From Eledone cirrhosa (lineage: Eukaryota), in the NCBI GenBank assembly GCA_964016885.1, contig OZ024740.1, positions 422,778,001-422,842,000 on the forward strand: DNA of 64,000 bases, in the 5' to 3' direction. A program made the translations under genes and the position numbers. Below the pieces are notes generated by a model, which saw only the letters and a program-made list of their open reading frames with translations, was not told the origin of the DNA and did no database searches. Shown piece by piece: positions 1 to 50,404 of this stretch. The first letter of the stretch is position 1, and the number at the start of each line of letters is the position of its first letter.

Positions 1-3000
1 ATATTGTCGTTAATATTATGATGTTCCCTGCTGTATTAGCGTTAAATTTTCCCTGCTGTATTAGCGATAAATTTTCGAGGGTTTCTCTTAGTAGTTTTTT
101 CATGACGTTATTATTGTTAATTTTACTGATGTAGTATTAACTTATTAACTTGGATATTTACCATGCGGTATTCTAATCCTATTGTATCTCTCTCAGTTAT
201 TTACCATGCGACCCTCAGTTCCTACCCTACCCCCTCTCTATGCACTTCTTTAAGGCTTACTACCCTGTCTTTAACCTAATTCATTCAATCTGAAAATATT
301 GAAGAGATAAGACACTTTCCCATTCTTCTCTGCTAAAATGTATCACTAGAGCTGATTCCAATTTTCCCAGCCATCCATCTAATCTACGAAGGTATTTTAG
401 CCTACATATTGTCGTTAATATTATGATGTTCCCTGCTGTATTAGCGTTAAATTTTCCCTGCTGTATTAGCGATAAATTTTCGAAGGTTTCTCTTAGTAGT
501 TTTTTCATGACGTTATTATTGTTAATTTTACTGATGTAGTATTAACTTGGATATTTACCATGCGACTCTCAGTTCCTAACCCCCCCCCCCCTCTCTATGC
601 ACTTCTTTAAGGCTTACTACCCTGTCTTTAACCTAATTCATTCAATCTGAAAATATTGAAGAGATAAGACACTTTCCCATTCTTCTCTGCTAAAATGTAT
701 CACTAGAGCTGATTCCAATTTTCCCAGCCATCCATCTAATCTACGAAGGTATTTTAGCCTACATATTGTCGTTAATATTATGATGTTCCCTGCTGTATTA
801 GCGTTAAATTTTCCCTGCTGTATTAGCGATAAATTTTCGAGGGTTTCTCTTAGTAGTTTTTTCATGACGTTATTATTGTTAATTTTACTGATGTAGTATT
901 AACTTATTAACTTGGATATTTACCATGCGGTATTCTAATCCTATTGTATCTCTCTCAGTTATTTACCATGCGACCCTCAGTTCCTACCCTACCCCCTCTC
1001 TATGCACTTCTTTAAGGCTTACTACCCTGTTTTTAACCTAATTCATTCAATCTGAAAATATTGAAGAGATAAGACACTTTCCCATTCTTCTCTGCTAAAA
1101 TGTATCACTAGAGCTGATTCCAATTTTCCCAGCCATCCATCTAATCTACGAAGGTATTTTAGCCTACATATTGTCGTTAATATTATGATGTTCCCTGCTG
1201 TATTAGCGTTAAATTTTCCCTGCTGTATTAGCGATAAATTTTCGAGGGTTTCTCTTAGTAGTTTTTTCATGACGTTATTATTGTTAATTTTACTGATGTA
1301 GTATTAACTTGGATATTTACCATGCGACTCTCAGTTCCTACCCCCCCCCCCCCTCTCTCTCTCTCTATGCACTTCTTTAAGGCTTACTACCCTGTCTTTA
1401 ACCTAATTCATTCAATCTGAAAATATTGAAGAGATAAGACACTTTCCCATTCTTCTCTGCTAAAATGTATCACTAGAGCTGATTCCAATTTTCCCAGCCA
1501 TCCATCTAATCTACGAAGGTATTTTAGCCTACATATTGTCGTTAATATTATGATGTTCCCTGCTGTATTAGCGTTAAATTTTCCCTGCTGTATTAGCGAT
1601 AAATTTTCGAGGGTTTCTCTTAGTAGTTTTTTCATGACGTTATTATTGTTAATTTTACTGATGTAGTATTAACTTGGATATTTACCATGCGACTCTCAGT
1701 TCCTACCCCCCCCCTCTCTATGCACTTCTTTAAGGCTTACTACCCTGTCTTTAACCTAATTCATTCAATCTGAAAATATTGAAGAGATAAGACACTTTCC
1801 CATTCTTCTCTGCTAAAATGTATCACTAGAGCTGATTCCAATTTTCCCAGCCATCCATCTAATCTACGAAGGTATTTTAGCCTACATATTGTCGTTAATA
1901 TTATGATGTTCCCTGCTGTATTAGCGTTAAATTTTCCCTGCTGTATTAGCGATAAATTTTCGAGGGTTTCTCTTAGTAGTTTTTTCATGACGTTATTATT
2001 GTTAATTTTACTGATGTAGTATTAACTTATTAACTTGGATATTTACCATGCGGTATTCTAATCCTATTGTATCTCTCTCAGTTATTTACCATGCGACCCT
2101 CAGTTCCTACCCCCCCCCCCCCCCCCCTCTCTATGCACTTCTTTAAGGCTTACTACCGTGTCTTTAACCTAATTCATTCAATCTGAAAATATTGAAGAGA
2201 TAAGACACTTTCCCATTCTTCTCTGCTAAAATGTATCACTAGAGCTGATTCCAATTTTCCCAGCCATCCATCTAATCTACGAAGGTATTTTAGCCTACAT
2301 ATTGTCGTTAATATTATGATGTTCCCTGCTGTATTAGCGTTAAATTTTCCCTGCTGTATTAGCGATAAATTTTCGAGGGTTTCTCTTAGTAGTTTTTTCA
2401 TGACGTTATTATTGTTAATTTTACTGATGTAGTATTAACTTGGATATTTACCATGCGACTCTCAGTTCCTACCCCCCCCCCCCTCTCTATGCACTTCTTT
2501 AAGGCTTACTACCCTGTCTTTAACCTAATTCATTCAATCTGAAAATATTGAAGAGATAAGACACTTTCCCATTCTTCTCTGCTAAATTGTATCACTAGAG
2601 CTGATTCCAATTTTCCCAGCCATCCATCTAATCTACGAAGGTATTTTAGCCTACATATTGTCGTTAATATTATGATGTTCCCTGCTGTATTAGCGTTAAA
2701 TTTTCCCTGCTGTATTAGCGATAAATTTTCGAGGGTTTCTCTTAGTAGTTTTTTCATGACGTTATTATTGTTAATTTTACTGATGTAGTATTAACTTATT
2801 AACTTGGATATTTACCATGCGGTATTCTAATCCTATTGTATCTCTCTCAGTTATTTACCATGCGACCCTCAGTTCCTACCCTACCCCCTCTCTATGCACT
2901 TCTTTAAGGCTTACTACCCTGTCTTTAACCTAATTCATTCAATCTGAAAATATTGAAGAGATAAGACACTTTCCCATTCTTCTCTGCTAAAATGTATCAC

Positions 3001-6000
3001 TAGAGCTGATTCCAATTTTCCCAGCCATCCATCTAATCTACGAAGGTATTTTAGCCTACATATTGTCGTTAATATTATGATGTTCCCTGCTGTATTAGCG
3101 TTAAATTTTCCCTGCTGTATTAGCGATAAATTTTCGAGGGTTTCTCTTAGTAGTTTTTTCATGGCGTTATTATTGTTAATTTTACTGATGTAGTATTAAC
3201 TTGGATATTTACCATGCGACCCTCAGTTCCTACCCCCCCCCCCTCTCTATGCACTTCTTTAAGGCTTACTACCCTGTCTTTAACCTAATTCATTCAATCT
3301 GAAAATATTGAAGAGATAAGACACTTTCCCATTCTTCTCTGCTAAAATGTATCACTAGAGCTGATTCCAATTTTCCCAGCCATCCATCTAATCTACGAAG
3401 GTATTTTAGCCTACATATTGTCGTTAATATTATGATGTTCCCTGCTGTATTAGCGTTAAATTTTCCCTGCTGTATTAGCGATAAATTTTCGAGGGTTTCT
3501 CTTAGTAGTTTTTTCATGACGTTATTATTGTTAATTTTACTGATGTAGTATTAACTTATTAACTTGGATATTTACCATGCGACCCTCAGTTCCTACCCCC
3601 TCTCTATGCACTTCTTTAAGGCTTACTACCCTGTCTTTAACCTAATTCATTCAATCTGAAAATATTGAAGAGATAAGACACTTTCCCATTCTTCTCTGCT
3701 AAAATGTATCACTAGAGCTGATTCCAATTTTCCCAGCCATCCATCTAATCTACGAAGGTATTTTAGCCTACATATTGTCGTTAATATTATGATGTTCCCT
3801 GCTGTATTAGCGTTAAATTTTCCCTGCTGTATTAGCGATAAATTTTCGAGGGTTTCTCTTAGTAGTTTTTTCATGACGTTATTATTGTTAATTTTACTGA
3901 TGTAGTATTAACTTATTAACTTGGATATTTACCATGCGGTATTCTAATCCTATTGTATCTCTCTCAGTTATTTACCATGCGACCCTCAGTTCCTACCCTA
4001 CCCCCTCTCTATGCACTTCTTTAAGGCTTACTACCCTGTCTTTAACCTAATTCATTCAATCTGAAAATATTGAAGAGATAAGACACTTTCCCATTCTTCT
4101 CTGCTAAAATGTATCACTAGAGCTGATTCCAATTTTCCCAGCCATCCATCTAATCTACGAAGGTATTTTAGCCTACATATTGTCGTTAATATTATGATGT
4201 TCCCTGCTGTATTAGCGTTAAATTTTCCCTGCTGTATTAGCGATAAATTTTCGAGGGTTTCTCTTAGTAGTTTTTTCATGGCGTTATTATTGTTAATTTT
4301 ACTGATGTAGTATTAACTTGGATATTTACCATGCGACCCTCAGTTCCTACCCCCCCCCCCCTCTCTATGCACTTCTTTAAGGCTTACTACCCTGTCTTTA
4401 ACCTAATTCATTCAATCTGAAAATATTGAAGAGATAAGACACTTTCCCATTCTTCTCTGCTAAAATGTATCACTAGAGCTGATTCCAATTTTCCCAGCCA
4501 TCCATCTAATCTACGAAGGTATTTTAGCCTACATATTGTCGTTAATATTATGATGTTCCCTGCTGTATTAGCGTTAAATTTTCCCTGCTGTATTAGCGAT
4601 AAATTTTCGAGGGTTTCTCTTAGTAGTTTTTTCATGACGTTATTATTGTTAATTTTACTGATGTAGTATTAACTTATTAACTTGGATATTTACCATGCGA
4701 CCCTCAGTTCCTACCCCCTCTCTATGCACTTCTTTAAGGCTTACTACCCTGTCTTTAACCTAATTCATTCAATCTGAAAATATTGAAGAGATAAGACACT
4801 TTCCTATTCTTCTCTGCTAAAATGTATCACTAGAGCTGATTCCAATTTTCCCAGCCATCCATCTAATCTACGAAGGTATTTTAGCCTACATATTGTCGTT
4901 AATATTATGATGTTCCCTGCTGTATTAGCGTTAAATTTTCCCTGCTGTATTAGCGATAAATTTTCGAGGGTTTCTCTTAGTAGTTTTTTCATGACGTTAT
5001 TATTGTTAATTTTACTGATGTAGTATTAACTTGGATATTTACCATGCGACCCTCAGTTCCTCCCCCCCCCCCTCTCTATGCACTTCTTTAAGGCTTACTA
5101 CCCTGTCTTTAACCTAATTCATTCAATCTGAAAATATTGAAGAGATAAGACACTTTCCCATTCTTCTCTGCTAAAATGTATCACTAGAGCTGATTCCAAT
5201 TTTCCCAGCCATCCATCTAATCTACGAAGGTATTTTAGCCTACATATTGTCGTTAATATTATGATGTTCCCTGCTGTATTAGCGTTAAATTTTCCCTGCT
5301 GTATTAGCGATAAATTTTCGAGGGTTTCTCTTAGTAGTTTTTTCATGACGTTATTATTGTTAATTTTACTGATGTAGTATTAACTTGGATATTTACCATG
5401 CGACCCTCAGTTCCTACCCCCTCCCCCTCTCTATGCACTTCTTTAAGGCTTACTACCCTGTCTTTAACCTAATTCATTCAATCTGAAAATATTGAAGAGA
5501 TAAGACACTTTCCTATTCTTCTCTGCTAAAATGTATCACTAGAGCTGATTCCAATTTTCCCAGCCATCCATCTAATCTACGAAGGTATTTTAGCCTACAT
5601 ATTGTCGTTAATATTATGATGTTCCCTGCTGTATTAGCGTTAAATTTTCCCTGCTGTATTAGCGATAAATTTTCGAGGGTTTCTCTTAGTAGTTTTTTCA
5701 TGACGTTATTATTGTTAATTTTACTGATGTAGTATTAACTTGGATATTTACCATGCGACCCTCAGTTCCTTCCCCCCCCCCTCTCTATGCACTTCTTTAA
5801 GGCTTACTACCCTGTCTTTAACCTAATTCATTCAATCTGAAAATATTGAAGAGATAAGACACTTTCCCATTCTTCTCTGCTAAAATGTATCACTAGAGCT
5901 GATTCCAATTTTCCCAGCCATCCATCTAATCTACGAAGGTATTTTAGCCTACATATTGTCGTTAATATTATGATGTTCCCTGCTGTATTAGCGTTAAATT

Positions 6001-9000
6001 TTCCCTGCTGTATTAGCGATAAATTTTCGAGGGTTTCTCTTAGTAGTTTTTTCATGACGTTATTATTGTTAATTTTACTGATGTAGTATTAACTTGGATA
6101 TTTACCATGCGACCCTCAGTTCCTACCCCCTCCCCCTCTCTATGCACTTCTTTAAGGCTTACTACCCTGTCTTTAACCTAATTCATTCAATCTGAAAATA
6201 TTGAAGAGATAAGACACTTTCCTATTCTTCTCTGCTAAAATGTATCACTAGAGCTGATTCCAATTTTCCCAGCCATCCATCTAATCTACGAAGGTATTTT
6301 AGCCTACATATTGTCGTTAATATTATGATGTTCCCTGCTGTATTAGCGTTAAATTTTCCCTGCTGTATTAGCGATAAATTTTCGAGGGTTTCTCTTAGTA
6401 GTTTTTTCATGACGTTATTATTGTTAATTTTACTGATGTAGTATTAACTTGGATATTTACCATGCGACCCACAGTTCCTACCCCCCCCCCTCTCTATGCA
6501 CTTCTTTAAGGCTTACTACCCTGTCTTTAACCTAATTCATTCAATCTGAAAATATTGAAGAGATAAGACACTTTCCTATTCTTCTCTGCTAAAATGTATC
6601 ACTAGAGCTGATTCCAATTTTCCCAGCCATCCATCTAATCTACGAAGGTATTTTAGCCTACATATTGTCGTTAATATTATGATGTTCCCTGCTGTATTAG
6701 CGTTAAATTTTCCCTGCTGTATTAGCGATAAATTTTCGAGGGTTTCTCTTAGTAGTTTTTTCATGACGTTATTATTGTTAATTTTACTGATGTAGTATTA
6801 ACTTGGATATTTACCATGCGACCCTCAGTTCCTACCCCCCCCCCCCCTCTCTATGCACTTCTTTAAGGCTTACTACCCTGTCTTTAACCTAATTCATTCA
6901 ATCTGAAAATATTGAAGAGATAAGACACTTTCCCATTCTTCTCTGCTAAAATGTATCACTAGAGCTGATTCCAATTTTCCCAGCCATCCATCTAATCTAC
7001 GAAGGTATTTTAGCCTACATATTGTCGTTAATATTATGATGTTCCCTGCTGTATTAGCGTTAAATTTTCCCTGCTGTATTAGCGATAAATTTTCGAGGGT
7101 TTCTCTTAGTAGTTTTTTCATGACGTTATTATTGTTAATTTTACTGATGTAGTATTAACTTGGATATTTACCATGCGACCCTCAGTTCCTACCCCCCCCC
7201 CCCTCTCTATGCACTTCTTTAAGGCTTACTACCCCGTCTTTAACCTAATTCATTCAATCTGAAAATATTGAAGAGATAAGACACTTTCCTATTCTTCTCT
7301 GCTAAAATGTATCACTAGAGCTGATTCCAATTTTCCCAGCCATCCATCTAATCTACGAAGGTATTTTAGCCTACATATTGTCGTTAATATTATGATGTTC
7401 CCTGCTGTATTAGCGTTAAATTTTCCCTGCTGTATTAGCGATAAATTTTCGAGGGTTTCTCTTAGTAGTTTTTTCATGACGTTATTATTGTTAATTTTAC
7501 TGATGTAGTATTAACTTGGATATTTACCATGCGACCCTCAGTTCCTACCCCCCCCCCCCTCTCTATGCACTTCTTTAAGGCTTACTACCCTGTCTTTAAC
7601 CTAATTCATTCAATCTGAAAATATTGAAGAGATAAGACACTTTCCTATTCTTCTCTGCTAAAATGTATCACTAGAGCTGATTCCAATTTTCCCAGCCATC
7701 CATCTAATCTACGAAGGTTTTTTAGCCTACATATTGTCGTTAATATTATGATGTTCCCTGCTGTATTAGCGTTAAATTTTCCCTGCTGTATTAGCGATAA
7801 ATTTTCGAGGGTTTCTCTTAGTAGTTTTTTCATGGCGTTATTATTGTTAATTTTACTGATGTAGTATTAACTTGGATATTTACCATGCGACCCTCAGTTC
7901 CTACCCCCCCCCCTCTCTATGCACTTCTTTAAGGCTTACTACCCTGTCTTTAACCTAATTCATTCAATCTGAAAATATTGAAGAGATAAGACACTTTCCC
8001 ATTCTTCTCTGCTAAAATGTATCACTAGAGCTGATTCCAATTTTCCCAGCCATCCATCTAATCTACGAAGGTATTTTAGCCTACATATTGTCGTTAATAT
8101 TATGATGTTCCCTGCTGTATTAGCGTTAAATTTTCCCTGCTGTATTAGCGATAAATTTTCGAGGGTTTCTCTTAGTAGTTTTTTCATGACGTTATTATTG
8201 TTAATTTTACTGATGTAGTATTAACTTATTAACTTGGATATTTACCATGCGACCCTCAGTTCCTACCCCCTCTCTATGCACTTCTTTAAGGCTTACTACC
8301 CTGTCTTTAACCTAATTCATTCAATCTGAAAATATTGAAGAGATAAGACACTTTCCCATTCTTCTCTGCTAAAATGTATCACTAGAGCTGATTCCAATTT
8401 TCCCAGCCATCCATCTAATCTACGAAGGTATTTTAGCCTACATATTGTCGTTAATATTATGATGTTCCCTGCTGTATTAGCGTTAAATTTTCCCTGCTGT
8501 ATTAGCGATAAATTTTCGAGGGTTTCTCTTAGTAGTTTTTTCATGACGTTATTATTGTTAATTTTACTGATGTAGTATTAACTTATTAACTTGGATATTT
8601 ACCATGCGGTATTCTAATCCTATTGTATCTCTCTCAGTTATTTACCATGCGACCCTCAGTTCCTACCCTACCCCCTCTCTATGCACTTCTTTAAGGCTTA
8701 CTACCCTGTCTTTAACCTAATTCATTCAATCTGAAAATATTGAAGAGATAAGACACTTTCCCATTCTTCTCTGCTAAAATGTATCACTAGAGCTGATTCC
8801 AATTTTCCCAGCCATCCATCTAATCTACGAAGGTATTTTAGCCTACATATTGTCGTTAATATTATGATGTTCCCTGCTGTATTAGCGTTAAATTTTCCCT
8901 GCTGTATTAGCGATAAATTTTCGAGGGTTTCTCTTAGTAGTTTTTTCATGGCGTTATTATTGTTAATTTTACTGATGTAGTATTAACTTGGATATTTACC

Positions 9001-12000
9001 ATGCGACCCTCAGTTCCTACCCCCCCCCCCTCTCTATGCACTTCTTTAAGGCTTACTACCCTGTCTTTAACCTAATTCATTCAATCTGAAAATATTGAAG
9101 AGATAAGACACTTTCCCATTCTTCTCTGCTAAAATGTATCACTAGAGCTGATTCCAATTTTCCCAGCCATCCATCTAATCTACGAAGGTATTTTAGCCTA
9201 CATATTGTCGTTAATATTATGATGTTCCCTGCTGTATTAGCGTTAAATTTTCCCTGCTGTATTAGCGATAAATTTTCGAGGGTTTCTCTTAGTAGTTTTT
9301 TCATGACGTTATTATTGTTAATTTTACTGATGTAGTATTAACTTATTAACTTGGATATTTACCATGCGACCCTCAGTTCCTACCCCCTCTCTATGCACTT
9401 CTTTAAGGCTTACTACCCTGTCTTTAACCTAATTCATTCAATCTGAAAATATTGAAGAGATAAGACACTTTCCTATTCTTCTCTGCTAAAATGTATCACT
9501 AGAGCTGATTCCAATTTTCCCAGCCATCCATCTAATCTACGAAGGTATTTTAGCCTACATATTGTCGTTAATATTATGATGTTCCCTGCTGTATTAGCGT
9601 TAAATTTTCCCTGCTGTATTAGCGATAAATTTTCGAGGGTTTCTCTTAGTAGTTTTTTCATGACGTTATTATTGTTAATTTTACTGATGTAGTATTAACT
9701 TGGATATTTACCATGCGACCCTCAGTTCCTACCCCCCCTCTCTATGCACTTCTTTAAGGCTTACTACCCTGTCTTTAACCTAATTCATTCAATCTGAAAA
9801 TATTGAAGAGATAAGACACTTTCCCATTCTTCTCTGCTAAAATGTATCACTAGAGCTGATTCCAATTTTCCCAGCCATCCATCTAATCTACGAAGGTATT
9901 TTAGCCTACATATTGTCGTTAATATTATGATGTTCCCTGCTGTATTAGCGTTAAATTTTCCCTGCTGTATTAGCGATAAATTTTCGAGGGTTTCTCTTAG
10001 TAGTTTTTTCATGACGTTATTATTGTTAATTTTACTGATGTAGTATTAACTTGGATATTTACCATGCGACCCTCAGTTCCTACCCCCTCCCCCTCTCTAT
10101 GCACTTCTTTAAGGCTTACTACCCTGTCTTTAACCGAATTCATTCAATCTGAAAATATTGAAGAGATAAGACACTTTCCTATTCTTCTCTGCTAAAATGT
10201 ATCACTAGAGCTGATTCCAATTTTCCCAGCCATCCATCTAATCTACGAAGGTATTTTAGCCTACATATTGTCGTTAATATTATGATGTTCCCTGCTGTAT
10301 TAGCGTTAAATTTTCCCTGCTGTATTAGCGATAAATTTTCGAGGGTTTCTCTTAGTAGTTTTTTCATGACGTTATTATTGTTAATTTTACTGATGTAGTA
10401 TTAACTTGGATATTTACCATGCGACCCTCAGTTCCTACCCCCCCCTCTCTATGCACTTCTTTAAGGCTTACTACCCTGTCTTTAACCTAATTCATTCAAT
10501 CTGAAAATATTGAAGAGATAAGACACTTTCCTATTCTTCTCTGCTAAAATGTATCACTAGAGCTGATTCCAATTTTCCCAGCCATCCATCTAATCTACGA
10601 AGGTATTTTAGCCTACATATTGTCGTTAATATTATGATGTTCCCTGCTGTATTAGCGTTAAATTTTCCCTGCTGTATTAGCGATAAATTTTCGAGGGTTT
10701 CTCTTAGTAGTTTTTTCATGACGTTATTATTGTTAATTTTACTGATGTAGTATTAACTTGGATATTTACCATGCGACCCTCAGTTCCTACCCCCCCCCCC
10801 CCTCTCTATGCACTTCTTTAAGGCTTACTACCCTGTCTTTAACCTAATTCATTCAATCTGAAAATATTGAAGAGATAAGACACTTTCCCATTCTTCTCTG
10901 CTAAAATGTATCACTAGAGCTGATTCCAATTTTCCCAGCCATCCATCTAATCTACGAAGGTATTTTAGCCTACATATTGTCGTTAATATTATGATGTTCC
11001 CTGCTGTATTAGCGTTAAATTTTCCCTGCTGTATTAGCGATAAATTTTCGAGGGTTTCTCTTAGTAGTTTTTTCATGACGTTATTATTGTTAATTTTACT
11101 GATGTAGTATTAACTTGGATATTTACCATGCGACCCTCAGTTCCTACCCCCCCCCCCTCTCTATGCACTTCTTTAAGGCTTACTACCCCGTCTTTAACCT
11201 AATTCATTCAATCTGAAAATATTGAAGAGATAAGACACTTTCCTATTCTTCTCTGCTAAAATGTATCACTAGAGCTGATTCCAATTTTCCCAGCCATCCA
11301 TCTAATCTACGAAGGTATTTTAGCCTACATATTGTCGTTAATATTATGATGTTCCCTGCTGTATTAGCGTTAAATTTTCCCTGCTGTATTAGCGATAAAT
11401 TTTCGAGGGTTTCTCTTAGTAGTTTTTTCATGACGTTATTATTGTTAATTTTACTGATGTAGTATTAACTTGGATATTTACCATGCGACCCTCAGTTCCT
11501 ACCCCCCCCCCCCCCTCTCTATGCACTTCTTTAAGGCTTACTACCCTGTCTTTAACCTAATTCATTCAATCTGAAAATATTGAAGAGATAAGACACTTTC
11601 CTATTCTTCTCTGCTAAAATGTATCACTAGAGCTGATTCCAATTTTCCCAGCCATCCATCTAATCTACGAAGGTATTTTAGCCTACATATTGTCGTTAAT
11701 ATTATGATGTTCCCTGCTGTATTAGCGTTAAATTTTCCCTGCTGTATTAGCGATAAATTTTCGAGGGTTTCTCTTAGTAGTTTTTTCATGACGTTATTAT
11801 TGTTAATTTTACTGATGTAGTATTAACTTGGATATTTACCATGCGACCCTCAGTTCCTACCCCCCCCCCTCTCTATGCACTTCTTTAAGGCTTACTACCC
11901 TGTCTTTAACCTAATTCATTCAATCTGAAAATATTGAAGAGATAAGACACTTTCCTATTCTTCTCTGCTAAAATGTATCACTAGAGCTGATTCCAATTTT

Positions 12001-12570
12001 CCCAGCCATCCATCTAATCTACGAAGGTATTTTAGCCTACATATTGTCGTTAATATTATGATGTTCCCTGCTGTATTAGCGTTAAATTTTATTTGCTGTA
12101 TTAGCGATAAATTTTCGAGGGTTTCTCTTAGTAGTTTTTTCATGACGTTATTATTGTTAATTTTACTGATGTAGTATTAACTTATTAACTTGGATATTTA
12201 CCATGCGACCCTCAGTTCCTATCCCCTCTCTATGCACTTCTTTAAGGCTTACTACCCTGTCTTTAACCTAATTCATTCAATCTGAAAATATTGAAGAGAT
12301 AAGACACTTTCCCATTCTTCTCTGCTAAAATGTATCACTAGAGCTGATTCCAATTTTCCCAGCCATCCATCTAATCTACGAAGGTATTTTAGCCTACATA
12401 TTGTCGTTAATATTATGATGTTCCTTGCTGTATTAGCGTTAAATTTTCCCTGCTGTATTAGCGATAAATTTTCGAGGGTTTCTCTTAGTAGTTTTTTCAT
12501 GACGTTATTATTGTTAATTTTACTGATGTAGTATTAACTTGGATATTTACCATGCGACCCTCAGTTCCTA
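1..12570. repeat. Tandem satellite array, ~35 monomers of ~353-365 bp (long variant ~405 bp), open at the window start
   Basis: 34 repeats of the same minus-strand 75/62-aa ORF mark the period. Units differ mainly in poly-C length, a 7-bp TTAACTT duplication, a ~42-bp internal duplication and a few SNPs. Confidence 0.98.
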
Positions 12571-15500
12571 CCTCACAATTTCCCTCCCCCCCCACTCCCA
12601 CACACCACCATAGTCTATTCGACCAATCAAACCTAGCATGCCATTTCCACTGCTGCTGCTACTACCTGCCTAACTAACTCTCTCCTCCTCTGGCGCATCC
12701 CAACACACCCTGCCATTACCCCACCACCACTGTACTTCTAGCCCTCAATTTTCCCGCCATTATGGATGGATGAGCTGGGAATACACGAGCAACTCTGAAT
12801 CAATAGATGAAATATGAATCTGCGAGCTACCAAGCACCCACGTGAAGCGCCAACCCAGAGACCCTCCCCTACGAGTGTCGACAAATGCCCAAAACTCCGA
12901 GTTGGTACCATCAATGTAGGCTCAATGAAAGGAAGAGCAGGAGAAATCGTAGAAATGCTAGAGCGAAAGGAAGTTGATGTATGCTGTGTGCAAGAGACTA
13001 GATGGAGAGGAGGGTCTGCTAGAGTCCTTGTAGGAAAAAGCCAGTGCTACAAATTTTTCTGGGTGGGAAATGACGATGGGATGGGTGGTGTAGGTATACT
13101 ATTAGCTGACAAGTGGGTAGATAAAGTAATCTCTGTGTACAGGGTAAATGCAAGAATCATTAAACTCAGACTAGTCCTGAATAAGACAATTACCACAATA
13201 ATATCAGCTTACGCACCCCAATCGGGGCTGCCAGACGAACTTAAGGATAGGTTTTACGAGTCCCTAATACACACTACTGCTCTAACAGACGACAAGGACT
13301 TCCTAATCATTGCAGGAGATTTTAACGGACACGTAGGTAAACACTGCGACGGCTTCAATAGAGTACATGGAGGCCATGGAGTTGGCACAAGGAATGAGGA
13401 AGGATTCAGACTTCTAGAATTCTGCGACGCCAATGACATGTCGATATGTAACACAAACTTTAAAAAACCCGACAACCACCTGATCACCTATAGATCAGGG
13501 GAGCACTCTAGTCAGTTAGATTTTATCCTCATCAGAGGACGTGACAGATGGACGGTCATAAACACAAAAGCCTTCCCTAGTGAGGAATGTACATCCCAAC
13601 ATAGCTTAGTTGTCAGCGACCTCACGGTCAGAACTAGACGAGCCCTGAAACAGAGGCCAACCTGGAGAAGAAAGATCTGGAAGCTGAAAGTCCCCTCAAC
13701 CAGTAACAGATTTAAAGATATTTTACTCAACGCCTACGACAGTAAAGAAGAACAGATAGAGACATTTAACGTAGAAGAGAACTGGGAGTTCCTAAAAAAT
13801 AACTTACTAGAGGCGACGGATGAGGTTTGTGGCTGGAGTAAGACCTCAAGCAGGAGGAGAGTGACTTGGTGGTGGAACAATAAGGTAGATGAAACAGTCA
13901 AGGCCAAGAGACAGGCATGGAAAGAATGGAAGAACGGGGGGAGCAGGGTACATTACATAGAGACCAAGAGGGAAGCTAGGCGACAAGTATACTTAGCTAG
14001 GAGGGAAGCAGAGGATAGAAAATTCAAGCACGTTTTACAACGTGAGGACCAGAAACAGGAGGTATTCAAGATTGCGAGGCAGTGTGTCAGAGATAGTTGT
14101 GATATCATTGGAGAGAAGTGTATCCGGAATGATAAAGGTGAGCTTGCCCTCACAAGTGCTGAGAAGAAAGATGCATGGAAGAGTCATTATGATAGATTAC
14201 TAAATGAGGAGAATGCATGGGAAGAAGAGACCCTACCCCACGTAGACCCTATAGAGGGACCAGCAGTACAAGTCAGCGGCAGCGTAGTAAGTAAGGCAAT
14301 CAGAGATATGAAGATAGGGAAGGCAACCGGTCCATCGGGTATAGCTGCCGAGATGCTGAAGGCATCTGGGTCTGTAGGTCACACTATAACCACACGTATC
14401 GTTAACCAGGTAATACTAGAGGGGGCCATACCAAAAGATTGGTGCAGTAGCATCATTGTCAACTGCTACAAAGGTAAAGGCGATGCACTAGATAGAGGAA
14501 ACTATAGAGGTATAAAGTTGATGGACCAGGTCATGAAAGTAACAGAAAGAGTTATAGCACAGCTGATTAGGGACCGGGTGAATATAGACGAGATGCAATT
14601 TGGGTTTGTACCAGGGAAAGGCACCACTGATGCCCTCTTCCTTGTGAGGCAATTACAGGAAAAGTACCTAGCTAAAAGTAAGCCACTCTACTTGGCATTT
14701 GTCGACCTTGAGAAAGCCTTTGACAGAGTTCCACGTGCAGTAATCTGGTGGGCTCTTAGAAAACTAGGAGTAGATGAATGGCTTGTGAAAGCGGTACAAG
14801 CCATGTATAGGGGAGCAGTCAGCAAAGTTAGGATTGGCAATGAGTATAGCGAGGAATTTAGCGTACAGGTTGGGGTCCACCAGGGCTCTGTTCTTAGCCC
14901 TCTCCTGTTCATCATAGTCCTGCAGGCAATAACGGAGGAGTTTAAGACCGGATGCCCATGGGAACTCCTGTATGCTGATGACCTCGCACTCATAGCTGAA
15001 TCTATGGTAGAACTAGGGAATAAATTCCAAACCTGGAAGCAGGGACTAGAGAGAAAGGGCCTCAAAGTCAACATGACAAAGACTAAGGTCCTTATAAGTA
15101 GACGAGAAAACAGAACCCAGATCCCCTCAGGGAAATGGCCTTGCTCAGTATGTAGGAAAGGTGTAGGTAGGAACTCCATTCTCTGCCCCAAATGCAAACA
15201 ATGGGTACACAAGAGATGTAGCGGGATCTCAGGAAGCTTAATTAAGAATGTAGGATTCACATGCAGCAGCTGTGCTGAAACAGCAAGCAAACAGCCACAG
15301 GAAACAAGTACCACCAATCTCTGGGAGGGCCCTGTAGAAACAGTAGACAGCTTCTGCTACCTAGGTGACCGAATTTGCAACGGAGATGGGTGCTCAGAAA
15401 GTACAATAACTAGGGTAAGAACGGGATGGAAGAAGTTTAGGGAACTACTACCACTGCTAGCTGCAAAAGGCTTCTCCCTCAGAATGAAAGGCAGACTGTA

Positions 15501-16235
15501 TGATGCGTGTATCCGAACAGCGATGTTGCATGGTAGTGAGACCTGGGCGCTGAAGGTGGAAGACTTACGTAGATTAGAGAGAAACGAAGCCTGCATGCTC
15601 CGATGGATGTGTAACAGTAATATACGTGAACGACAAAGCATAAAGGAATTGAGAGAGAGACTGAGCATAAGAGGAATCAAATGCTGCGTGCAGGAGAGGC
15701 GGTTACGCTGGTATGGACATGTGATGCGTATGAAGGATGACAGCTGCATAAAAAGGTGCAGAGCACTAGAAGTTGATGGAAACCGCGGAGTGGGGAGACC
15801 CAAGATGACTTGGGATGAGGTGATAAAAGCTGACCTTACCCAACTACACCTCTCAAAGTCAATGACACACGACCGTGACTTCTGGCGTCACGCAGTAATA
15901 CAGGGTACCCGACCTCCCATGGGTACATGCTGAAGCATATAAACAATATGCCCCCACTCCCCCCACCGCAAGGTGGTCGTGGAGGTGCCACGGCAAAAAA
16001 GCACCCAGCCCACACTGTAAAGTGGACGTGTAGGCGCCACGAAAAAGCACCCAGCACTCACTGTAAATGAGGTTGGTGTTAGGAAGGGCATCCAGCTGTA
16101 GAAATCAAGCCAGATCAGTTCCTGTATGAGCAAGGCATGGTCAGCCGACCAGACACTGCCCACAACAGGACAACCCGTCTAACCCATGCTAGCGTGGAAG
16201 AACGGACGTAAAACGGTGATGATGATGATGATGAT
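12571..16235 (+). mobile_element. Apparently full-length RTE-clade non-LTR retrotransposon: 5' leader, single ORF, 3' UTR, (GAT)n tail
   Basis: Single APE+RT ORF. The 3' UTR ends ...GGACGTAAAACGGTGATGATGATG, followed by (TA)n. A single ORF with a short-repeat tail is typical of RTE. Confidence 0.93.
12814..15933 (+). CDS. Intact RTE ORF, 1039 aa: AP-like endonuclease, reverse transcriptase, PHD-like zinc-finger insertion
   Basis: APE motifs GTINV, CCVQET, SAYAP, GDFNGH, LDFIL, SQHSLV. RT motifs [48 protein letters not shown]-type C-terminus RLRWYGHVMR...GRPKMTW. Confidence 0.95.
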   Translation: MNLRATKHPREAPTQRPSPTSVDKCPKLRVGTINVGSMKGRAGEIVEMLERKEVDVCCVQETRWRGGSARVLVGKSQCYKFFWVGNDDGMGGVGILLADKWVDKVISVYRVNARIIKLRLVLNKTITTIISAYAPQSGLPDELKDRFYESLIHTTALTDDKDFLIIAGDFNGHVGKHCDGFNRVHGGHGVGTRNEEGFRLLEFCDANDMSICNTNFKKPDNHLITYRSGEHSSQLDFILIRGRDRWTVINTKAFPSEECTSQHSLVVSDLTVRTRRALKQRPTWRRKIWKLKVPSTSNRFKDILLNAYDSKEEQIETFNVEENWEFLKNNLLEATDEVCGWSKTSSRRRVTWWWNNKVDETVKAKRQAWKEWKNGGSRVHYIETKREARRQVYLARREAEDRKFKHVLQREDQKQEVFKIARQCVRDSCDIIGEKCIRNDKGELALTSAEKKDAWKSHYDRLLNEENAWEEETLPHVDPIEGPAVQVSGSVVSKAIRDMKIGKATGPSGIAAEMLKASGSVGHTITTRIVNQVILEGAIPKDWCSSIIVNCYKGKGDALDRGNYRGIKLMDQVMKVTERVIAQLIRDRVNIDEMQFGFVPGKGTTDALFLVRQLQEKYLAKSKPLYLAFVDLEKAFDRVPRAVIWWALRKLGVDEWLVKAVQAMYRGAVSKVRIGNEYSEEFSVQVGVHQGSVLSPLLFIIVLQAITEEFKTGCPWELLYADDLALIAESMVELGNKFQTWKQGLERKGLKVNMTKTKVLISRRENRTQIPSGKWPCSVCRKGVGRNSILCPKCKQWVHKRCSGISGSLIKNVGFTCSSCAETASKQPQETSTTNLWEGPVETVDSFCYLGDRICNGDGCSESTITRVRTGWKKFRELLPLLAAKGFSLRMKGRLYDACIRTAMLHGSETWALKVEDLRRLERNEACMLRWMCNSNIRERQSIKELRERLSIRGIKCCVQERRLRWYGHVMRMKDDSCIKRCRALEVDGNRGVGRPKMTWDEVIKADLTQLHLSKSMTHDRDFWRHAVIQGTRPPMGTC

Positions 16236-16258
16236 TTATATATATATTTATATATATT

Positions 16259-16291
<33 letters not shown>

Positions 16292-16294
16292 ATA

Positions 16295-16325
<31 letters not shown>

Positions 16326-16327
16326 TT

Positions 16328-18430
16328 ATCATCATCATCATCATCATCAACGTTTAACGTCCGTGTTCCACGCTTGCATGGGTTTGGACGGGGGTAGTCC
16401 CACTTGAGGCAAGAATGATTGTCTTGCTCGCATAGGACTGTCTGGCAGGTTTTCTACAGTTGGATGCCCTTCCTAACACCAACCACATTTACAGTGTGGG
16501 TCTGGGAGGTTTTTACCGTGTTGCCTACACGGCCACATTACAGCGTGGACTGTGTGTTTTTTTGTCGTGACACCTACACGATCTCATTTGTTTCGGCCTC
16601 GATGGCGCGGCACCAACATAACTTTACATAGAACGGGGTGGTGTGGATGGGGTGGGGGTGGTGGTGGTGGGACGGGGTGTATTTTATTAGAGATGCCTAC
16701 TGGCTGGAGTAGGTTTTACTATATATTTAGGTAAGGCGGGTCTTCTCTGTTACTGAGTACCGCCAAAGGTCTCGGTCCAGTGACATTGTCTTGGAGAGGT
16801 GTAAGTGTGTGATGTCGGAGTTTATCAGCTCGTCCCAGGTTTTTCTAGGTCTGCCTATTCCGTGACTACCGTCTATCTTTATTGCCCTGCACTTTGTTAT
16901 ACAGCTATCGACTTTCATGCGCATCACGTGTCCATACCAACGTAGCCTTCTCTCGAGTAAACATCTGATCCCTCTTATCTCTAATTTTTTCCTTAGTTCG
17001 TTTATGCTTTGCCGTTCACGTATATTACTGTTACACATCCAGCGGAGCATGCAAGCTTCGTTCCTCTCTAGTCTGCGTATATCCTCTGCACACAATGCCC
17101 AGGTCTCACTGCCATGCAGCATTGCTGTTCGTATGCAGGCATCGTACAACCTGCCTTTCATTTTTAGTGAGAACCCTTTAGCAGCTAATAGTGGTATAAG
17201 CTCTCTGAACTTTTTCCAACCAGTTCTGACTCTAGCTACAGTACTTTCAGAGCACCCTCCCCCACTGCTGATTTTATCGCCCAGGTAACGGAAGCTGTCC
17301 ACTATTTCTATAGTACCCTCTGCGCAATTGAAAGAGCTAGTATTTTGTGGGCACTTGCTGCTACTTATTGCACCAGAGCACCGGCCACATGTAAAATCTA
17401 TGTTCTTAGTTAGCTTACCTGTGATCCCACTACATCTTTTATGCACCCATACTTTGCATTTAGGACATAAAATGGAGTTTCTACCTACGCCTTTCCTACA
17501 CACCCAGCACGACCATTTTCCAGAAGGGACCGCCGCCTTGTTTTCTTTCCTACAAACTAGTACTTTGGTCTTAGCCAGGTTAATTTTAAGTCCTTTTGAC
17601 TCTAGGCCGTGCTTCCATGTTTGGAATTTCTTCTCTAGCTCGGCCATTGATTCCGCTATGAGTGTCAGGTCGTCTGCGTATAGGAGTTCCCATGGGCAGC
17701 CTGTCTTGAACTCCTCTGTTATAGCCTGAAGGACAATAATAAATAGTAGTGGGCTGAGAACAGAGCCCTGATGGACGCCAACTTTTACGCTAAACTCTTC
17801 ACTATATTCGTTGTTAATTCTAACCTTGCTGACTGTTTCTTTATACATGGCTTGTATAGCCCTCACAAGCCATTCGTCAACGCCTAGTTTTCTAAGAGCC
17901 CACCAGATAATGGAGCGGGGGACTCTGTCGAAGGCTTTCTCCAAGTCGACAAAAGCTAAGTAGAGGGGTTTACCTTTAGCTAGGTACTTCTCCTGTAGTT
18001 GTCGTACTATGAAAAGAGCGTCTGTGGTACTTTTGCCTGACACAAACCCGAACTGCATTTCATCTAGGTCAATTCTCTCTCTGATTAGTTGCGCTATTAC
18101 TTTTTCCGTGACCTTCATGACCTGGTCGATTAATTTAATGCCTCTATAGTTACTCCTATCTAGGGCGTCTCCTTTACCCTTATAACAGTTAACGATGATG
18201 CTGCTATGCCAGTCCTTCGGAACAACCCCATTCTGTACGACTTGGTTAACTATGCGGGTGACCATGGTGTGTCCCACCGTGCCAGATGCCTTCAGCATCT
18301 CAGCAACTATTTCCGAAGGCCCAGCCGCCTTACCCGTCTTCATATCCTTGATTGCCTTACTTATTATACTCCCCTCGACTAACACTGCTGGTCCCTCTAT
18401 TGGGTCGATATGGGGGAGACTGTCTTTCTC

Positions 18431-18432
<2 letters not shown>
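16328..18432 (-). mobile_element. 5'-truncated RTE copy (second subfamily), tail-to-tail with the intact element across (TA)n
   Basis: ORF 16727-18385 has RT motifs and the same PHD-like insert. (ATC)n tail at 16328; (TA)n on both sides. Confidence 0.93.
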
Positions 18433-18464
<32 letters not shown>

Positions 18465-18465
<1 letters not shown>

Positions 18466-18568
18466 CATCATCATCGTTTTACGTCCTTTCTTCCATGCTA
18501 GCATGGGTTAGAAGGGTTGTCCTGTTGTGGGCAATGCCAGGTCAAGTGACCATGTCTTGCTCATATGT
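18465..18568 (-). mobile_element. Isolated RTE 3'-tail fragment
   Basis: Reverse complement matches the RTE tails at 16125-16230 and 63895-63990. Confidence 0.7.
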
Positions 18569-21931: not shown

Positions 21932-22666
21932 AAATACTAATTTAATATACCAATAAATACTAGTTTAATATACCAATAAATACTAATTTAATATACCAAT
22001 AAATACTAGTTTAATATACCAATAAATACTAATTTAATATACCAATAAATACTAGTTTAATATACCAATAAATACTAATTTAATATACCAATAAATACCA
22101 GTTCAATATACCAATAAATACTAATTTACTATACCAATAAATACTAATTTAATATAATATACCAATAAATATTAGTTTAATATACCAATAAATACTAATT
22201 TAATATACCAATAAATACTAATTTAATATACCAATAAATACTAGTTTAATATACCAATAAATAGTTTAATATACCAATAAATACTAATTTAATATACCAA
22301 TAAATAGTTTAATATACCAATAAATACTAATTTAATATACCAATAAATACTAGTTTAATATACCAATAAATACTAGTTTAATATACCAATAAATACCAGT
22401 TTCATATACCAATAAATACCAGTTTAATATACCAATAAATACCAGTTTAATATACCAATAAATACCAGTTTAATATACCAATAAATACCAGTTTAATATA
22501 CTAATAGATACTAGTTTAATATAATATACCAATAAATACTAGTTTAATATAATATACCAATAAATACTAGTTTAATATAATATACCAATCAATACTAGTT
22601 TAATATAATATACCAATCGATACTAGTTTAATATACCAATAAATACTAATTTAATATACCAATAAA
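21932..22666. repeat. AT-rich minisatellite, 23-bp unit
   Basis: (AAATACTAATTTAATATACCAAT)n with variants. Confidence 0.95.
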
Positions 22667-22759
22667 TGAAACCAGTTACTGTTAGTTTACTAATCTTGTG
22701 CAAACTATTGATTATTTTGAAAACTTATTGGCAACTCGTAGATAGTCAATCATTATTAT

Positions 22760-25525: not shown

Positions 25526-25656
25526 CTCAAATAATTTAAAAGAAATAGAGAGAAAATGATGTCCGAAAGAGTATCGTCCACTTCCCACTAACTTCCCCTC
25601 CACCTCTGGCTCCCAGATTCTCTCTAACATTATAACTACATCACTACATTAATAGC

Positions 25657-32640: not shown

Positions 32641-32654
32641 TATAGTGGTTTCTC

Positions 32655-47138: not shown

Positions 47139-50100
47139 CCTATAATTCTGTCTGGTTGTTTCTAAATAATCTTGTATTTTAAAACCCCATTATTCGCTTA
47201 TTATTACTGTTATATGCTTGTCCAATTATGCCCCAAATTCGAAGATTTCATTTAAACCCTCTCGTAAAATGCCCCTCTAAAATAACAATCTTGTTTGTTT
47301 AATTTTGGCCGAAAATTCTAGGATTTATAAAATGGCCTCATTGTCCCTCTCAATCTTTACCCCCCCCCCCCCCCCCACCCACTGTATCTTATTATTCACC
47401 GGCTTACTATTCACCCTTTCAATCACTTCCTTCTCTCACCAAATATGAATAAACCTGTTACGAGGTACGAATCTCAGAATTTGTCAACGCTTATTAATGG
47501 TCAGACCTCATCGTCCCCTGTGAAGTGTAATGTAAATGCCATTTTTCTTATCTCTCTCCAACCTATCGGTCCATTCATTCATATATCCGTATCATCGCCC
47601 AGAATCCAATCTTTTGCTCTCTCTCAATGCTATTCTATAATTCGGTTTGGTTGTTTCTAAATAATCTTCTTGTATTTTAAAACCCCATTATTCGCTTATT
47701 ATTACTGTTATATGCTTGTCCAATTATGACCAAAATTCGAAGATTTCATTTAAACCCTCTCGCTAACTACCCCATACCCCTCTCACCCGCCCCCACTCTC
47801 CACCATTATTATTAGGACCAATCATAACTCAGCGGCCTATGCTATCACTTCTGGTTGTTTGCCGATATGATGGATGAACTATGGAATTCTGGAGAGTCTG
47901 AAAAAATCTGGACACTCAGTGACAATGCCAAAGATAAAGGCAAATTCACCACATGCTGCCGGACGAAAAGACAAGGACTCCTCCTCTTTGTTTCGGCAGC
48001 GGATGGCCAAGATAACCCCAACCCCATCCCCCTCACCCCTCCCCATGCCCCACCGTTCCCACCTACCAAACGCAATCCAAAACTTCAGAGTTGGTACCAT
48101 GAATGTAGGCACCTTAAAAGGTCGCTCTAACGAGGTTGTAGAAATGCTTGAACGTAAGGAGGTTGATGTTTGCTGTATCCAAGAGACCAGGTGGAGGGGT
48201 GGGTCTGCTAGATTCATTGTGGGTAAAAAAACGATGCTATAAGCTTTTCTGGGTGGGAAATGAAAATTGGCTGGGTGGGGTAGGAATCATGTTAGCAGAA
48301 AAATGGGTAGATAAGATAATAGACGTAAATAGAGTGAACGACAGAATAATTAAAATAAGACTTGTCCTAAATAGAACTACTGTGACAGTAATATCTGCGT
48401 ATGCACCCCAATCCGGACTGCCTGGCACTATAAAAGACAGATTCTATGAGACATTGATGCTCACTACCTCCCAAATAACCGACAGTGACTACATAATTAT
48501 TGCTGGCGACCTAAATCGTCATGTTGGACAACATTGTGATGGCTATGACGGAATCCATGGAGGCTATGGGTTTGGTACTAGAAATGAGGAAGGCTCCAGA
48601 ATCCTGGAATTCTGCGACGCAAATAATCTAACTATCTGTAACACTAACTTCAAAAAACGAGACAATCACTTGATCACCTATAGATCAGGGGAACACGCCA
48701 GTCAGATAGATTATATCCTTACCAGAAGACGTGATAGAGTGTCTGTTGTAAACACTAAATCCCTCCCCCATGAAGAATGCACCTCCCAACATAGACTCAT
48801 AATCAGCGACCTCATAGTCAGGACAAGACGTACTCAACAACAGAGGAGGATTATCCTCAGGAGAAAAATATGGAAACTAAAGGACCCCACAGCCAGTAAT
48901 AAATTTAAAAGCATATTACTTGATGCTTTCGACAGTAAGGAAGAGCAATTAGAGTCGTACAATATAGAGGAACAGTGGGAATTCCTGAAAGCTAACCTGC
49001 TGAAGGCGGCAGATGAAGTCTGTAGCTGGAGCAGGCCTATAGGCAGGAGGAGAGTAACGTGGTGGTGGAACAGTAAGGTGGAGTCAATTAAGGCCAAAAA
49101 GCAGGCTTGGAAAGTATGGCGGGATGGGGGAAATAGAGAAGACTATCAAGTGGCCAGGAGGGAAACTAGGAGACAAGTGTACTTCGCAAGAAGGGAAGCA
49201 GAGGAAAGAAAGTTCAAGCATGTTCTACAACGCGAGGACCAAAAACGTGAGGTGTTCAGGATTGCTAGGCAATGTGTCAAGGAAAACCATGATATTGTCG
49301 GGGAGAAGTGTGTCCTTAATGATGATGGTGTACTTGCCATCACTGACGCTGATAAGGTAGCTTGGAAGTGTCACTACGAAAGGCTACTAAATGAGGAGAA
49401 TAAATGGGAGAAAGACAGTCTCCCCCCACATCGATCCAATAGAGGGCCCAGCAGTGCTAGTTGAAGGTAGTATAATAAGTAAGGCAATCAAAGATATGAA
49501 GATGGGTAAGGCGGCTGGGCCTTCGGAAATAGTTGCTGAAATGCTGAAAGCATCTGGAACTGTGGGACACACTATGGTCACCCGGATAGTAAACCAAGTC
49601 ATACAGAATGGGGCCGTTCCGAAGGACTGGCATAGCAGCATCATCATTAACTGCTACAAGGGTAAAGGGGATGCTCTTGATAGGGGTAACTATAGAGGCA
49701 TTAAATTAATCGACCAGGTCATGAAGGTCACAGAAAAAGTAATAGTGCAACTAATCAGAGAACGAATTGATCTAGCTGAAATGCAGTTCGGGTTTGTGTC
49801 AGGTAAAAGTACCACAGACGCTCTTTTCATTGTACGACAACTACAGGAGAAGTACCTAGCTAAAAGTAAACCCCTATACTTAGCTTTTGTTGACTTGGAG
49901 AAAGCCTTTGACTGAGTTCCCCGCTCCATTATCTGGTGGGCGCTTAGAAAACTAGGTGTTGATGAATGGCTTGTGAGAGCTATACAAGCCATGTATAAAG
50001 AAACAGTCAGCAAGGTTAGAATTAATAGCGAATATAGTGAAAAGTTTAGCGTAAAAGTTGGTGTTCATCAGGGCTCCGTTCTTAGCCCCCTACTATTTAT

Positions 50101-50404
50101 TATTGCCCTTCAGGCTATAACAGAGGAGTTCAAGACCGGCTGCCCATGGGAACTCCTATATGCAGATGATCTAACGCTCATAGCTGAATCAATGGCTGAA
50201 CTAGAGAAGAAATTCCAAACATGGAAGCATGGCCTAGAATCAAAAGGCCTTAAAGATAACTTGTCTAAGACTAAAGTTCTAATATGTAGGAAAGAAAATA
50301 GGGCACTGGTCCCATCTGGGAAATGGCCATGCTCAGTGTGTAGGAAAGGAGTAGGCAGAAACTCCATTTTATGTCCCAAATGCAAAGTGTGGGATCACAG
50401 GTAA
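47139..50404 (+). mobile_element. RTE copy retaining its 5' end; frameshifted and 3'-interrupted
   Basis: ORF pieces 47874-48242, 48148-49464, 49391-49915 and 49973-50404 are colinear with the intact ORF. The sequence breaks inside the PHD-like finger. Confidence 0.9.

What the first reader, a model, noticed from the sequence alone, without database searches (positions are those of the whole stretch)
1..12813. Satellite array fused to the 5' end of an intact RTE LINE: candidate tandem 5' monomers expanded into satellite DNA
Seen: ~35 near-identical ~355-bp units run with no spacer, TSD or (TA)n into the ~240-bp leader of the only intact RTE ORF; most other element junctions here are (TA)n. 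The other RTE that keeps its 5' end (47.1 kb) has a recognisably similar leader (C-rich, GACCAATCA, ATGGATGA.CT..GAAT) and is also preceded by a direct repeat, of unrelated sequence but also with a poly-C run. Known: mouse L1 uses exchangeable tandem 5' promoter monomers; I do not know this as standard for RTE. Inference: this lineage may carry swappable tandem 5' monomers that can amplify into multi-kb satellites.
Basis: partly seen in the sequence, partly recalled or inferred. Interest (0 to 1): 0.75.

Follow-up and report, generated by a model that had tools for sequence, protein, structure and literature searches.

The report
LINE's front-end repeats grown into satellite
The satellite is the repeated front end that hundreds of copies of a young, likely RTE-type jumping gene carry across this genome; at this copy it is 63,000 bases long and likely grew in place after insertion, and the repeats likely act as renewable promoters, as in mouse LINE-1, though no transcription start has been measured.

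Summary
Observation confirmed and larger than reported: the ~355/405-bp array runs 50.7 kb beyond the window (63.2 kb, 169 units) and joins the leader of an intact endonuclease-RT ORF. It is no chance neighbour: the exact junction occurs 389 times genome-wide, 83 of 90 leader-anchored copies carry monomers, all 30 listed monomer clusters touch this element, monomer variants track ORF variants, and three array-plus-element units split another repeat cleanly. Copies end at random phases, at about the truncation rate of the ORF, with no shared 5' cap. This array has private variants and a repeated 17-unit block, so it likely grew in place; no sampled copy descends from it. The sister family at 47 kb has its own 495-bp monomer (30 of 30 copies). 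Swapping is not shown: monomers change about five times faster than the ORF, enough to erase homology. Promoter activity is inferred only. Architecture matches rodent L1 monomers plus tether; nine literature searches found no RTE case. The scan already reported this architecture several times in this genome; new here are the size, truncation-rate test and rate-based alternative to swapping.

The parts
1..12572 (+). 3' fifth of the family-A 5' monomer array (34-35 of 169 units; whole array 63.2 kb from G000:C1:422727333)
12213..12572 (+). last monomer (M1), short type, the type usually found next to the leader
   Evidence: M1 short in 29 of 43 typed loci; upstream units long in 99 of 101 typed at other loci
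12561..12566 (+). TCAGTT, matches an initiator-like consensus (consensus recalled); present once or twice per unit; function untested
   Evidence: sequence; motif scan of the unit
12573..12813 (+). unique C-rich leader (tether equivalent) between array and ORF
   Evidence: 497 exact copies of a 30-mer
12621..12629 (+). GACCAATCA, CCAAT-box consensus match (consensus recalled), kept in families A and B
   Evidence: (28 of 30 family-B loci)
12766..12798 (+). 10-codon upstream ORF in frame with, but stopped before, the main ORF
   Evidence: same arrangement in most copies
12814..15933 (+). single ORF, 1039 aa: AP endonuclease, reverse transcriptase, PHD-like finger
15934..16235 (+). 3' UTR ending in (GAT)6
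16236..16329 (.). (TA)n with TTTA interruptions, same type as the AT run before the array's first unit: likely the target microsatellite
47139..47762 (+). family-B 5' monomer, 495-bp period, 1.3 copies
47763..50402 (+). family-B leader (CCAAT match at 47816) and broken, 3'-truncated ORF, 74% identical to family A over the first kb

Best explanation
The array is the variable-length tandem 5' end of a young, likely RTE-clade LINE family, copied with the element, and at this locus it likely grew in place to 63 kb; the units likely carry the element's promoter so that any copy keeping about one unit would stay transcribable. SHOWN: the monomer is terminal, sits at one fixed junction in hundreds of copies, is inherited with the ORF, and is inserted with it as one piece; 5' ends fall anywhere in the unit at about the body's truncation rate. 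INFERRED: templates are several units long and reverse transcription stops at random, so arrays shorten at each jump; tandem DNA exchange or slippage then regrows them (private variants repeated within arrays), and a runaway of that regrowth makes satellite-sized arrays such as this one. INFERRED BY ANALOGY ONLY: RNA polymerase II starts within the monomers.
For: Junction 35-mer 389 exact copies, leader 30-mer 497, monomer 31-mer 1094, reversed controls 0. 26 of the first 30 and 57 of the next 60 leader-anchored C1 copies have a monomer block; the other 7 end in a stub, at the junction or inside the leader. ORF-start-anchored sample: 21 of 30 reach the leader start, 18 with monomer, 2 with stubs, 1 ending at the junction. 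30 of 30 monomer clusters are attached to the element, 29 at the leader. No shared sequence caps the array in 86 flanks, beyond common host repeats and one duplicated locus. L139, L144 (2 of 8 complex-flank loci, control 2 of 56) and L149 split another repeat cleanly; flank-to-flank matches average 8.3 bp vs 4.8+/-0.6 in shuffled pairs. Monomer and body distances correlate (rho 0.56, p 0.0003, n 28). Ending rate in the array 0.65/kb (0.50-0.80) vs 0.52 and 0.97/kb in the ORF. 41 of 57 full-length copies have an open ORF and bodies differ by 0.4-0.5%. In-place growth: substitutions in 17, 14 and 10 of this array's units are absent from 151 units elsewhere; 111 of 169 units are the short type that elsewhere is almost confined to M1; a 17-unit block recurs (shuffled maximum 5); 8 of 19 other arrays have private variants in several units. 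Family B has the same layout with its own unit, up to 6.2 kb.
Against: No transcript, start site or reporter evidence. 5' ends of 77 copies beyond M1 do not cluster at any position (Rayleigh p 0.05; best window p 0.06-0.96), so there is no footprint of a fixed start site. The monomer is AT-rich (36% GC, 8 CpG), unlike CpG-island rodent monomers (PMC5381506). The best conserved promoter-like motif (CCAAT) lies in the leader, not the monomer. The broad empty-site test was uninformative (22 of 50 vs 17-26 in controls). Exact-pattern counts mix subfamilies of different age, so the body truncation rates are rough. None of the sampled copies carries this array's private variants, so the idea that long arrays serve as source elements is not supported here. 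Array length rests on the assembly alone.
Confidence: 0.68

Rival explanations
1. The monomers are an inherited but non-promoter 5' buffer or passenger; transcription comes from host read-through or from a promoter centred on the leader's CCAAT box, and the array only absorbs 5' truncation.
For: No clustering of 5' ends; CCAAT match conserved in both leaders while monomers are not alignable; monomer changes fivefold faster than the body. The RTE element Perere-3 is described as transcribed from host promoters (PMC8501958, passages).
Against: Two families with 74% ORF identity both keep a terminal tandem unit at the same boundary of the leader, which is hard to explain without a role; read-through transcripts without a ribozyme should carry flanking DNA, yet no shared upstream flank was found in 86 copies.
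Confidence: 0.22
2. Arrays are rebuilt at each insertion by repeated template jumps of the reverse transcriptase on one unit, not inherited as multi-unit templates and regrown in DNA.
For: Units within a locus are more alike (0.45%) than between loci (1.6%); 8 of 19 arrays have private variants in several units.
Against: M1 is mostly the short type and upstream units almost always the long type, so at least two units are inherited; the ending rate is flat over the first 3 kb and like the body's; a 63-kb array with 12- and 24-unit periodicity fits unequal exchange better than one reverse-transcription event.
Confidence: 0.12
3. Families A and B acquired unrelated monomers by 5' replacement (true swapping, as in rodent L1). 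Compatible with the best explanation; confidence refers to this sub-claim.
For: A versus B monomers score no better than shuffles (z 0.3-2.0) while leaders and ORFs align.
Against: Within lineage A, subfamilies with 95-98.5% ORF identity already have monomers only 75-91% identical with many gaps, so 74% ORF identity would erase the signal anyway; a weak 93-bp, 63% match around the poly-C run and equal base skew hint at common descent; no chimera seen.
Confidence: 0.3
4. An RTE inserted by chance at the edge of an existing satellite, or the 63-kb length is an assembly artefact.
For: The length is an outlier (next longest seen 10.5 kb) and was not checked with long reads.
Against: 389 identical junctions; matching microsatellite on both outer sides; structured, non-identical units without N; an independent-looking DNA run holds monomer and leader (contigs only).
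Confidence: 0.04

Closest known systems
Mouse L1Md (A, Tf, Gf) and rat L1 monomeric 5' UTR with tether (PMC9022269 passages; PMC5381506 passages)
   Same: Terminal tandem monomers of variable number, partial outermost unit, ~240-bp unique tether that is more conserved between families than the monomers, position preference of monomer types, mean about 3-4 units in the youngest families.
   Different: Different LINE clade (single ORF, (GAT)n tail, no ORF1); AT-rich, CpG-poor units of 355-500 bp; far longer tail of array sizes (mouse: 7 of 5765 loci above 10 units; here at least 7 of 88 above about 4.8 kb, one of 169 units); promoter activity and replacement are proven in mouse, not here.
Dictyostelium TRE5-A A-module (PMC3159450 passages)
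   Same: A ~200-bp 5' module of a non-LTR element with promoter activity; that it occurs in tandem copies is recalled, not seen in the passages read.
   Different: Different clade, two ORFs, tRNA-gene targeting; no satellite-scale arrays known to me.
RTE-clade elements Perere-3 (PMC8501958 passages) and octopus RTE-2_OV (PMC9115989 passages)
   Same: Single endonuclease-RT ORF of similar size, microsatellite 3' end.
   Different: Perere-3 defines its 5' end with a twister-variant ribozyme at a fixed distance; RTE-2_OV is described with a ~600-nt 5' UTR and the words 'tandem' and 'monomer' do not occur in that main text. Here no ribozyme was found and there is no fixed 5' end. Sequence identity to either was not tested.
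Satellites derived from transposable elements (review PMC6947457 passages); 5' VNTRs of fungal FoTeR elements (PMC12857005 passages)
   Same: Part of a retroelement amplified in tandem; variable repeats upstream of an RT ORF.
   Different: Here the unit is already the normal repeated terminus of an active family and the satellite is still joined to an intact parent; FoTeR repeats are short VNTRs in a telomeric REL-endonuclease clade.

Membership tests
RTE-clade non-LTR retrotransposon | single ORF with N-terminal AP endonuclease and RT, no long ORF1 | tested here: met
   Pfam Exo_endo_phos and RVT_1 in one 1039-aa ORF; only short upstream ORFs in the leader
RTE-clade non-LTR retrotransposon | 3' end in a short tandem microsatellite, frequent 5' truncation | tested here: met
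   (GAT)n tail in 57 of 60 copies; counts fall 6147, 3353, 998 towards the 5' end
RTE-clade non-LTR retrotransposon | RT phylogeny groups with named RTE elements | not tested
   449 homologues at 44-54% identity among the 120 listed, none named as to clade; solved structures offer only distant L1 and R2. The RTE label rests on architecture and recall.
Rodent-L1-type monomer promoter | terminal tandem units of variable number ahead of a unique tether | tested here: met
Rodent-L1-type monomer promoter | units retrotranspose with the element | tested here: met
   split host repeats; co-varying variants
Rodent-L1-type monomer promoter | monomers drive transcription, more units give more activity | not testable with these tools
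   needs start-site mapping and reporters
Rodent-L1-type monomer promoter | CpG-island, GC-rich monomers | tested here: not met
   36-41% GC, 7-12 CpG per unit
Rodent-L1-type monomer promoter | replacement by non-homologous monomers between subfamilies | tested here: inconclusive
   A vs B not alignable but fast change by descent suffices; no chimeras
Rodent-L1-type monomer promoter | host element is an L1 (ORF1 plus ORF2, poly-A tail) | tested here: not met
   single ORF and (GAT)n tail; so it works like, but is not, a rodent L1 5' UTR
Ribozyme-headed LINE (Perere-3, R2 type) | self-cleaving ribozyme fixing the 5' end | tested here: not met
   no Rfam hit near gathering; no hammerhead core or crude HDV-like candidate, fold z between -1.3 and 0.8, and no fixed 5' end
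Satellite DNA | long homogeneous head-to-tail array with higher-order structure | tested here: met
   63.2 kb, 0.46% within-array divergence, repeated 17-unit block
Satellite DNA | heterochromatic or centromeric location, independence from the parent element | tested here: inconclusive
   all arrays examined remain joined to the LINE; chromatin not testable

The most novel reading that the evidence does not exclude
An RTE-type LINE lineage has independently evolved a rodent-L1-like renewable promoter made of terminal monomers, kept alive by a cycle of truncation at each jump and tandem regrowth in the genome; the same regrowth routinely overshoots, so active LINE promoters are a standing source of new satellites (here 63 kb, still fused to an intact element), and long arrays may be stronger source elements.
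Probability: 0.45. Interest if true: 0.75.

Novelty: new variant of a known kind. Interest (0 to 1): 0.55.

Why it matters
Monomer-plus-tether 5' ends have been treated mainly as a rodent L1 feature; finding the same layout in two sister families of another clade would be a clear case of convergence and a second system for asking how a LINE keeps a promoter that each round of copying erodes. The family is young, has many intact copies and arrays from a fraction of a unit to 169 units, so unit number versus activity, and the birth of a satellite from a living transposon, can be tested directly. It also means repeat annotations will split this element into a 'satellite' and a 'LINE'.

Tried and rejected
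Ribozyme in monomer or leader: Rfam, descriptor search and fold z-scores gave nothing. RNA evidence: no RNA holder listed; four contig runs were laid and only show that monomer, leader and ORF are present as DNA-type contigs. Broad empty-site test swamped by (TA)n flanks; a first Mantel test was inflated by indels (rho 0.32) and redone on the 5' 250 bp of the unit. Simple periodicity above 0.3 was not found in the array; the best lags were 49 and 12 units. Fixed start site in the monomer: not supported. Origin of either monomer from other sequence in the window: no match. A third RTE-like family (C) was tested for the same layout: its 89-bp and 114-bp repeats are internal, with shared unique sequence upstream, so the terminal layout is not general to all such families here. 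This locus as a source element: its private variants are absent from 151 units at other loci. Literature: nine searches found no paper describing tandem 5' monomers in an RTE element; Repbase reports, subscription journals and supplements were not seen and may hold such a description. Search of earlier findings by sequence returned nothing.
Full report
Observation. The window opens with a head-to-tail array, period about 357 bp, 34 copies to position 12572. Units are short (349-365 bp) or long (400-408 bp), 98.7% identical on average. The last unit runs directly into a 241-bp C-rich leader and a 1039-aa ORF with AP-endonuclease, RT and PHD-like domains, followed by a 3' UTR and (GAT)6. The window is G000:C1:422778001-422842000. 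The array continues upstream to C1:422727333: 63.2 kb, 169 units, no N. It begins in a 774-bp AT run with TTTA interruptions, the same type as the run after the element's tail, as expected if array and element sit in one microsatellite target.

The monomer belongs to the element. Exact whole-genome counts: leader 30-mer 497, junction 35-mer 389, monomer 31-mer 1094, reversed controls 0. A search with the junction itself gave 39 full-length hits among 39 scored candidates, but that query is biased, so I sampled by leader alone: of the 96 C1 places listed, I examined 90 plus the window (the last five were not fetched). 26 of the first 30 and 57 of the next 60 have a monomer block against the leader; the other seven stop in a stub, at the junction or inside the leader. 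Sampling by ORF start, 21 of 30 copies reach the leader start: 18 with monomer, 2 with stubs, 1 ending at the junction. Conversely, the first 100 monomer hits form clusters of which 30 were paired: 29 lie 270-670 bp before a leader or ORF-start mark in the same orientation, and one is fused to the middle of the ORF by an internal deletion. No unique cap is shared among 86 upstream flanks; 56 of 86 are microsatellite. The array is therefore terminal.

Inserted as one piece. Joining the two outer flanks restores another repeat for L139 (1.5-kb array) and L144 (2.5 kb): 2 of 8 complex-flank loci against 2 of 56 mismatched pairs; L149 shows the same at 97% identity. The version of this test on all 50 loci was uninformative (22 vs 17-26). 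Exact flank-to-flank matches average 8.3 bp against 4.8+/-0.6, maximum 6.4 in 200 shuffles. Monomer variants follow body variants (rho 0.56, p 0.0003, 28 copies). The family is young: bodies differ by 0.4-0.5% and 41 of 57 full-length copies keep an open ORF.

No natural 5' end. With three likely duplicated loci dropped, 81 of 88 copies enter the array, 62 pass one unit, 25 pass 1.85 kb and 6 pass 5.8 kb. The ending rate over the first 4 kb is 0.65 per kb (0.50-0.80), flat to 3 kb; in the ORF, counts of 6147, 3353 and 998 give 0.52 and 0.97 per kb (rough, since exact patterns mix ages). The phases of 77 ends beyond M1 are close to uniform (Rayleigh p 0.05; best window p 0.06-0.96). I infer that templates carry several units and copying stops at random. 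A self-cleaving ribozyme would fix the end; none was found.

Growth in place. Other long arrays measured 4.8, 6.9, 7.0, 7.5, 7.6 and 10.5 kb; this one holds 168 of the 1094 exact monomer marks. At about 0.7 per kb a 63-kb cDNA is not credible. Substitutions found in 17, 14 and 10 of its units are absent from 151 units elsewhere; 111 of 169 units are the short type, which elsewhere is typical of M1 (29 of 43 typed) and rare upstream (2 of 101 typed); a 17-unit block recurs 24 units later, against at most 5 in shuffles. 8 of 19 other arrays also repeat a private substitution, so local duplication is common, though inheritance from unsampled parents cannot be excluded. Against a special role for this locus: no sampled copy carries its private variants.

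Sister families. Family B (47 kb; 74% ORF identity, homologous leader) has its 495-bp unit against the leader in 30 of 30 top-scoring copies; five clusters picked from 168 exact marks are arrays of 1.0-6.2 kb, all abutting leader B. Monomers A and B do not align better than shuffles (z 0.3-2.0), apart from a weak match around the poly-C run. But older A subfamilies with 95-98.5% ORF identity have monomers 75-91% identical with many gaps, and among young copies the unit differs by 2.1% against 0.38% for the body. Fast remodelling can thus explain the difference; swapping is possible, not shown. A third family has internal, not terminal, repeats.

Function. Promoter activity is inferred from the layout and from the logic that a repeated promoter survives truncation. 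Sequence hints are an initiator-like TCAGTT at the unit end and a CCAAT match in both leaders (28 of 30 B loci); both consensus labels are recalled. The AT-rich units and the unclustered ends give no direct support, and a leader-centred or host promoter remains a live rival.

Comparison. Mouse and rat L1 have monomers plus tether with proven promoter activity, 3-4 units on average and only 7 of 5765 loci above 10 units (PMC9022269, PMC5381506; passages). TRE5-A has a 200-bp promoter module (PMC3159450, passages). Known RTE 5' ends include a twister ribozyme (PMC8501958, passages); octopus RTE-2_OV is given a ~600-nt UTR with no mention of tandem units (PMC9115989, passages); a recent octopus repeat annotation does not use the words satellite or UTR (PMC13282606, passages). 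I also read passages of PMC6947457, PMC10257491 and PMC12857005; other papers were seen as search listings only. The host taxon was not established by my calls; octopus papers were chosen on a recalled resemblance. Nine searches found no RTE with tandem 5' monomers, within a library lacking Repbase reports and most subscription journals. RTE membership rests on architecture; homologues were unnamed.

Earlier notes. The scan has described this architecture at least six times in this genome, one of them at the locus I fetched as L144; these are unreviewed and not independent support. My reading was formed before seeing them.

Verdict. Real, reproducible across the genome, a new variant of a known design, with an unusually large in-place expansion; mechanism of expression untested. 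Interest 0.55.

Noticed in passing
L222, L224, L238, L240, L247, L250 (family C, about 950-1580 in element orientation): A third RTE-like family has an internal 89-bp repeat (up to 5 copies) and a 114-127-bp repeat (up to 4.7 copies) in its 5' UTR; the 89-bp unit and the sequence after it resemble the 3' UTR of family A (75-86% over 30-50 bp).
   Followed up: partly
L115, L117, L132, L135, L139, L145, L169 and others: One family-A subfamily has extra ~99-bp sub-repeats inside each monomer, giving 500-600-bp units; it co-varies with body variants.
   Followed up: partly
L213 (G000:C1:8878001-8888000), 3831-5754: One monomer fused straight to the middle of the ORF (internal deletion of leader and endonuclease), followed head-to-tail by a full-length copy with a monomer stub.
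   Followed up: partly
L184, L186, L193: Three of nine copies truncated inside the leader start within 5 bp of each other at the ORF start codon; small numbers, may be microhomology.
   Followed up: no
L151, L152 (G000:C1:341.37 and 342.12 Mb); L136/L137; L172/L173: Pairs of copies with identical flanks, likely segmental duplications; L151/L152 have a ~220-bp foreign insert inside the monomer array.
   Followed up: partly
window 45719-46391 and 50403-50820: A 225-bp, pyrimidine-rich tandem unit (3 copies) whose unit and downstream sequence recur right where the family-B ORF is cut off; likely another mobile element.
   Followed up: no
window 25656-27081, 29999-32644, 21932-22667, 58578-59092: Further homogeneous minisatellites (33, 79, 23 and 37 bp), showing a general tendency to tandem expansion in this region.
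   Followed up: no
window 16236-18478 and 51150-53160: 5'-truncated family-B copies, one tail-to-tail with the family-A element across the (TA)n.
   Followed up: no
window 40098-40859 and 42130-43030: Open frames that look like RT and GIY-YIG parts of Penelope-like elements (recalled resemblance, not searched).
   Followed up: no
window 13000-15400 (ORF residues 777-820): A PHD-like finger after the RT domain, shared by many of the unnamed homologues.
   Followed up: partly
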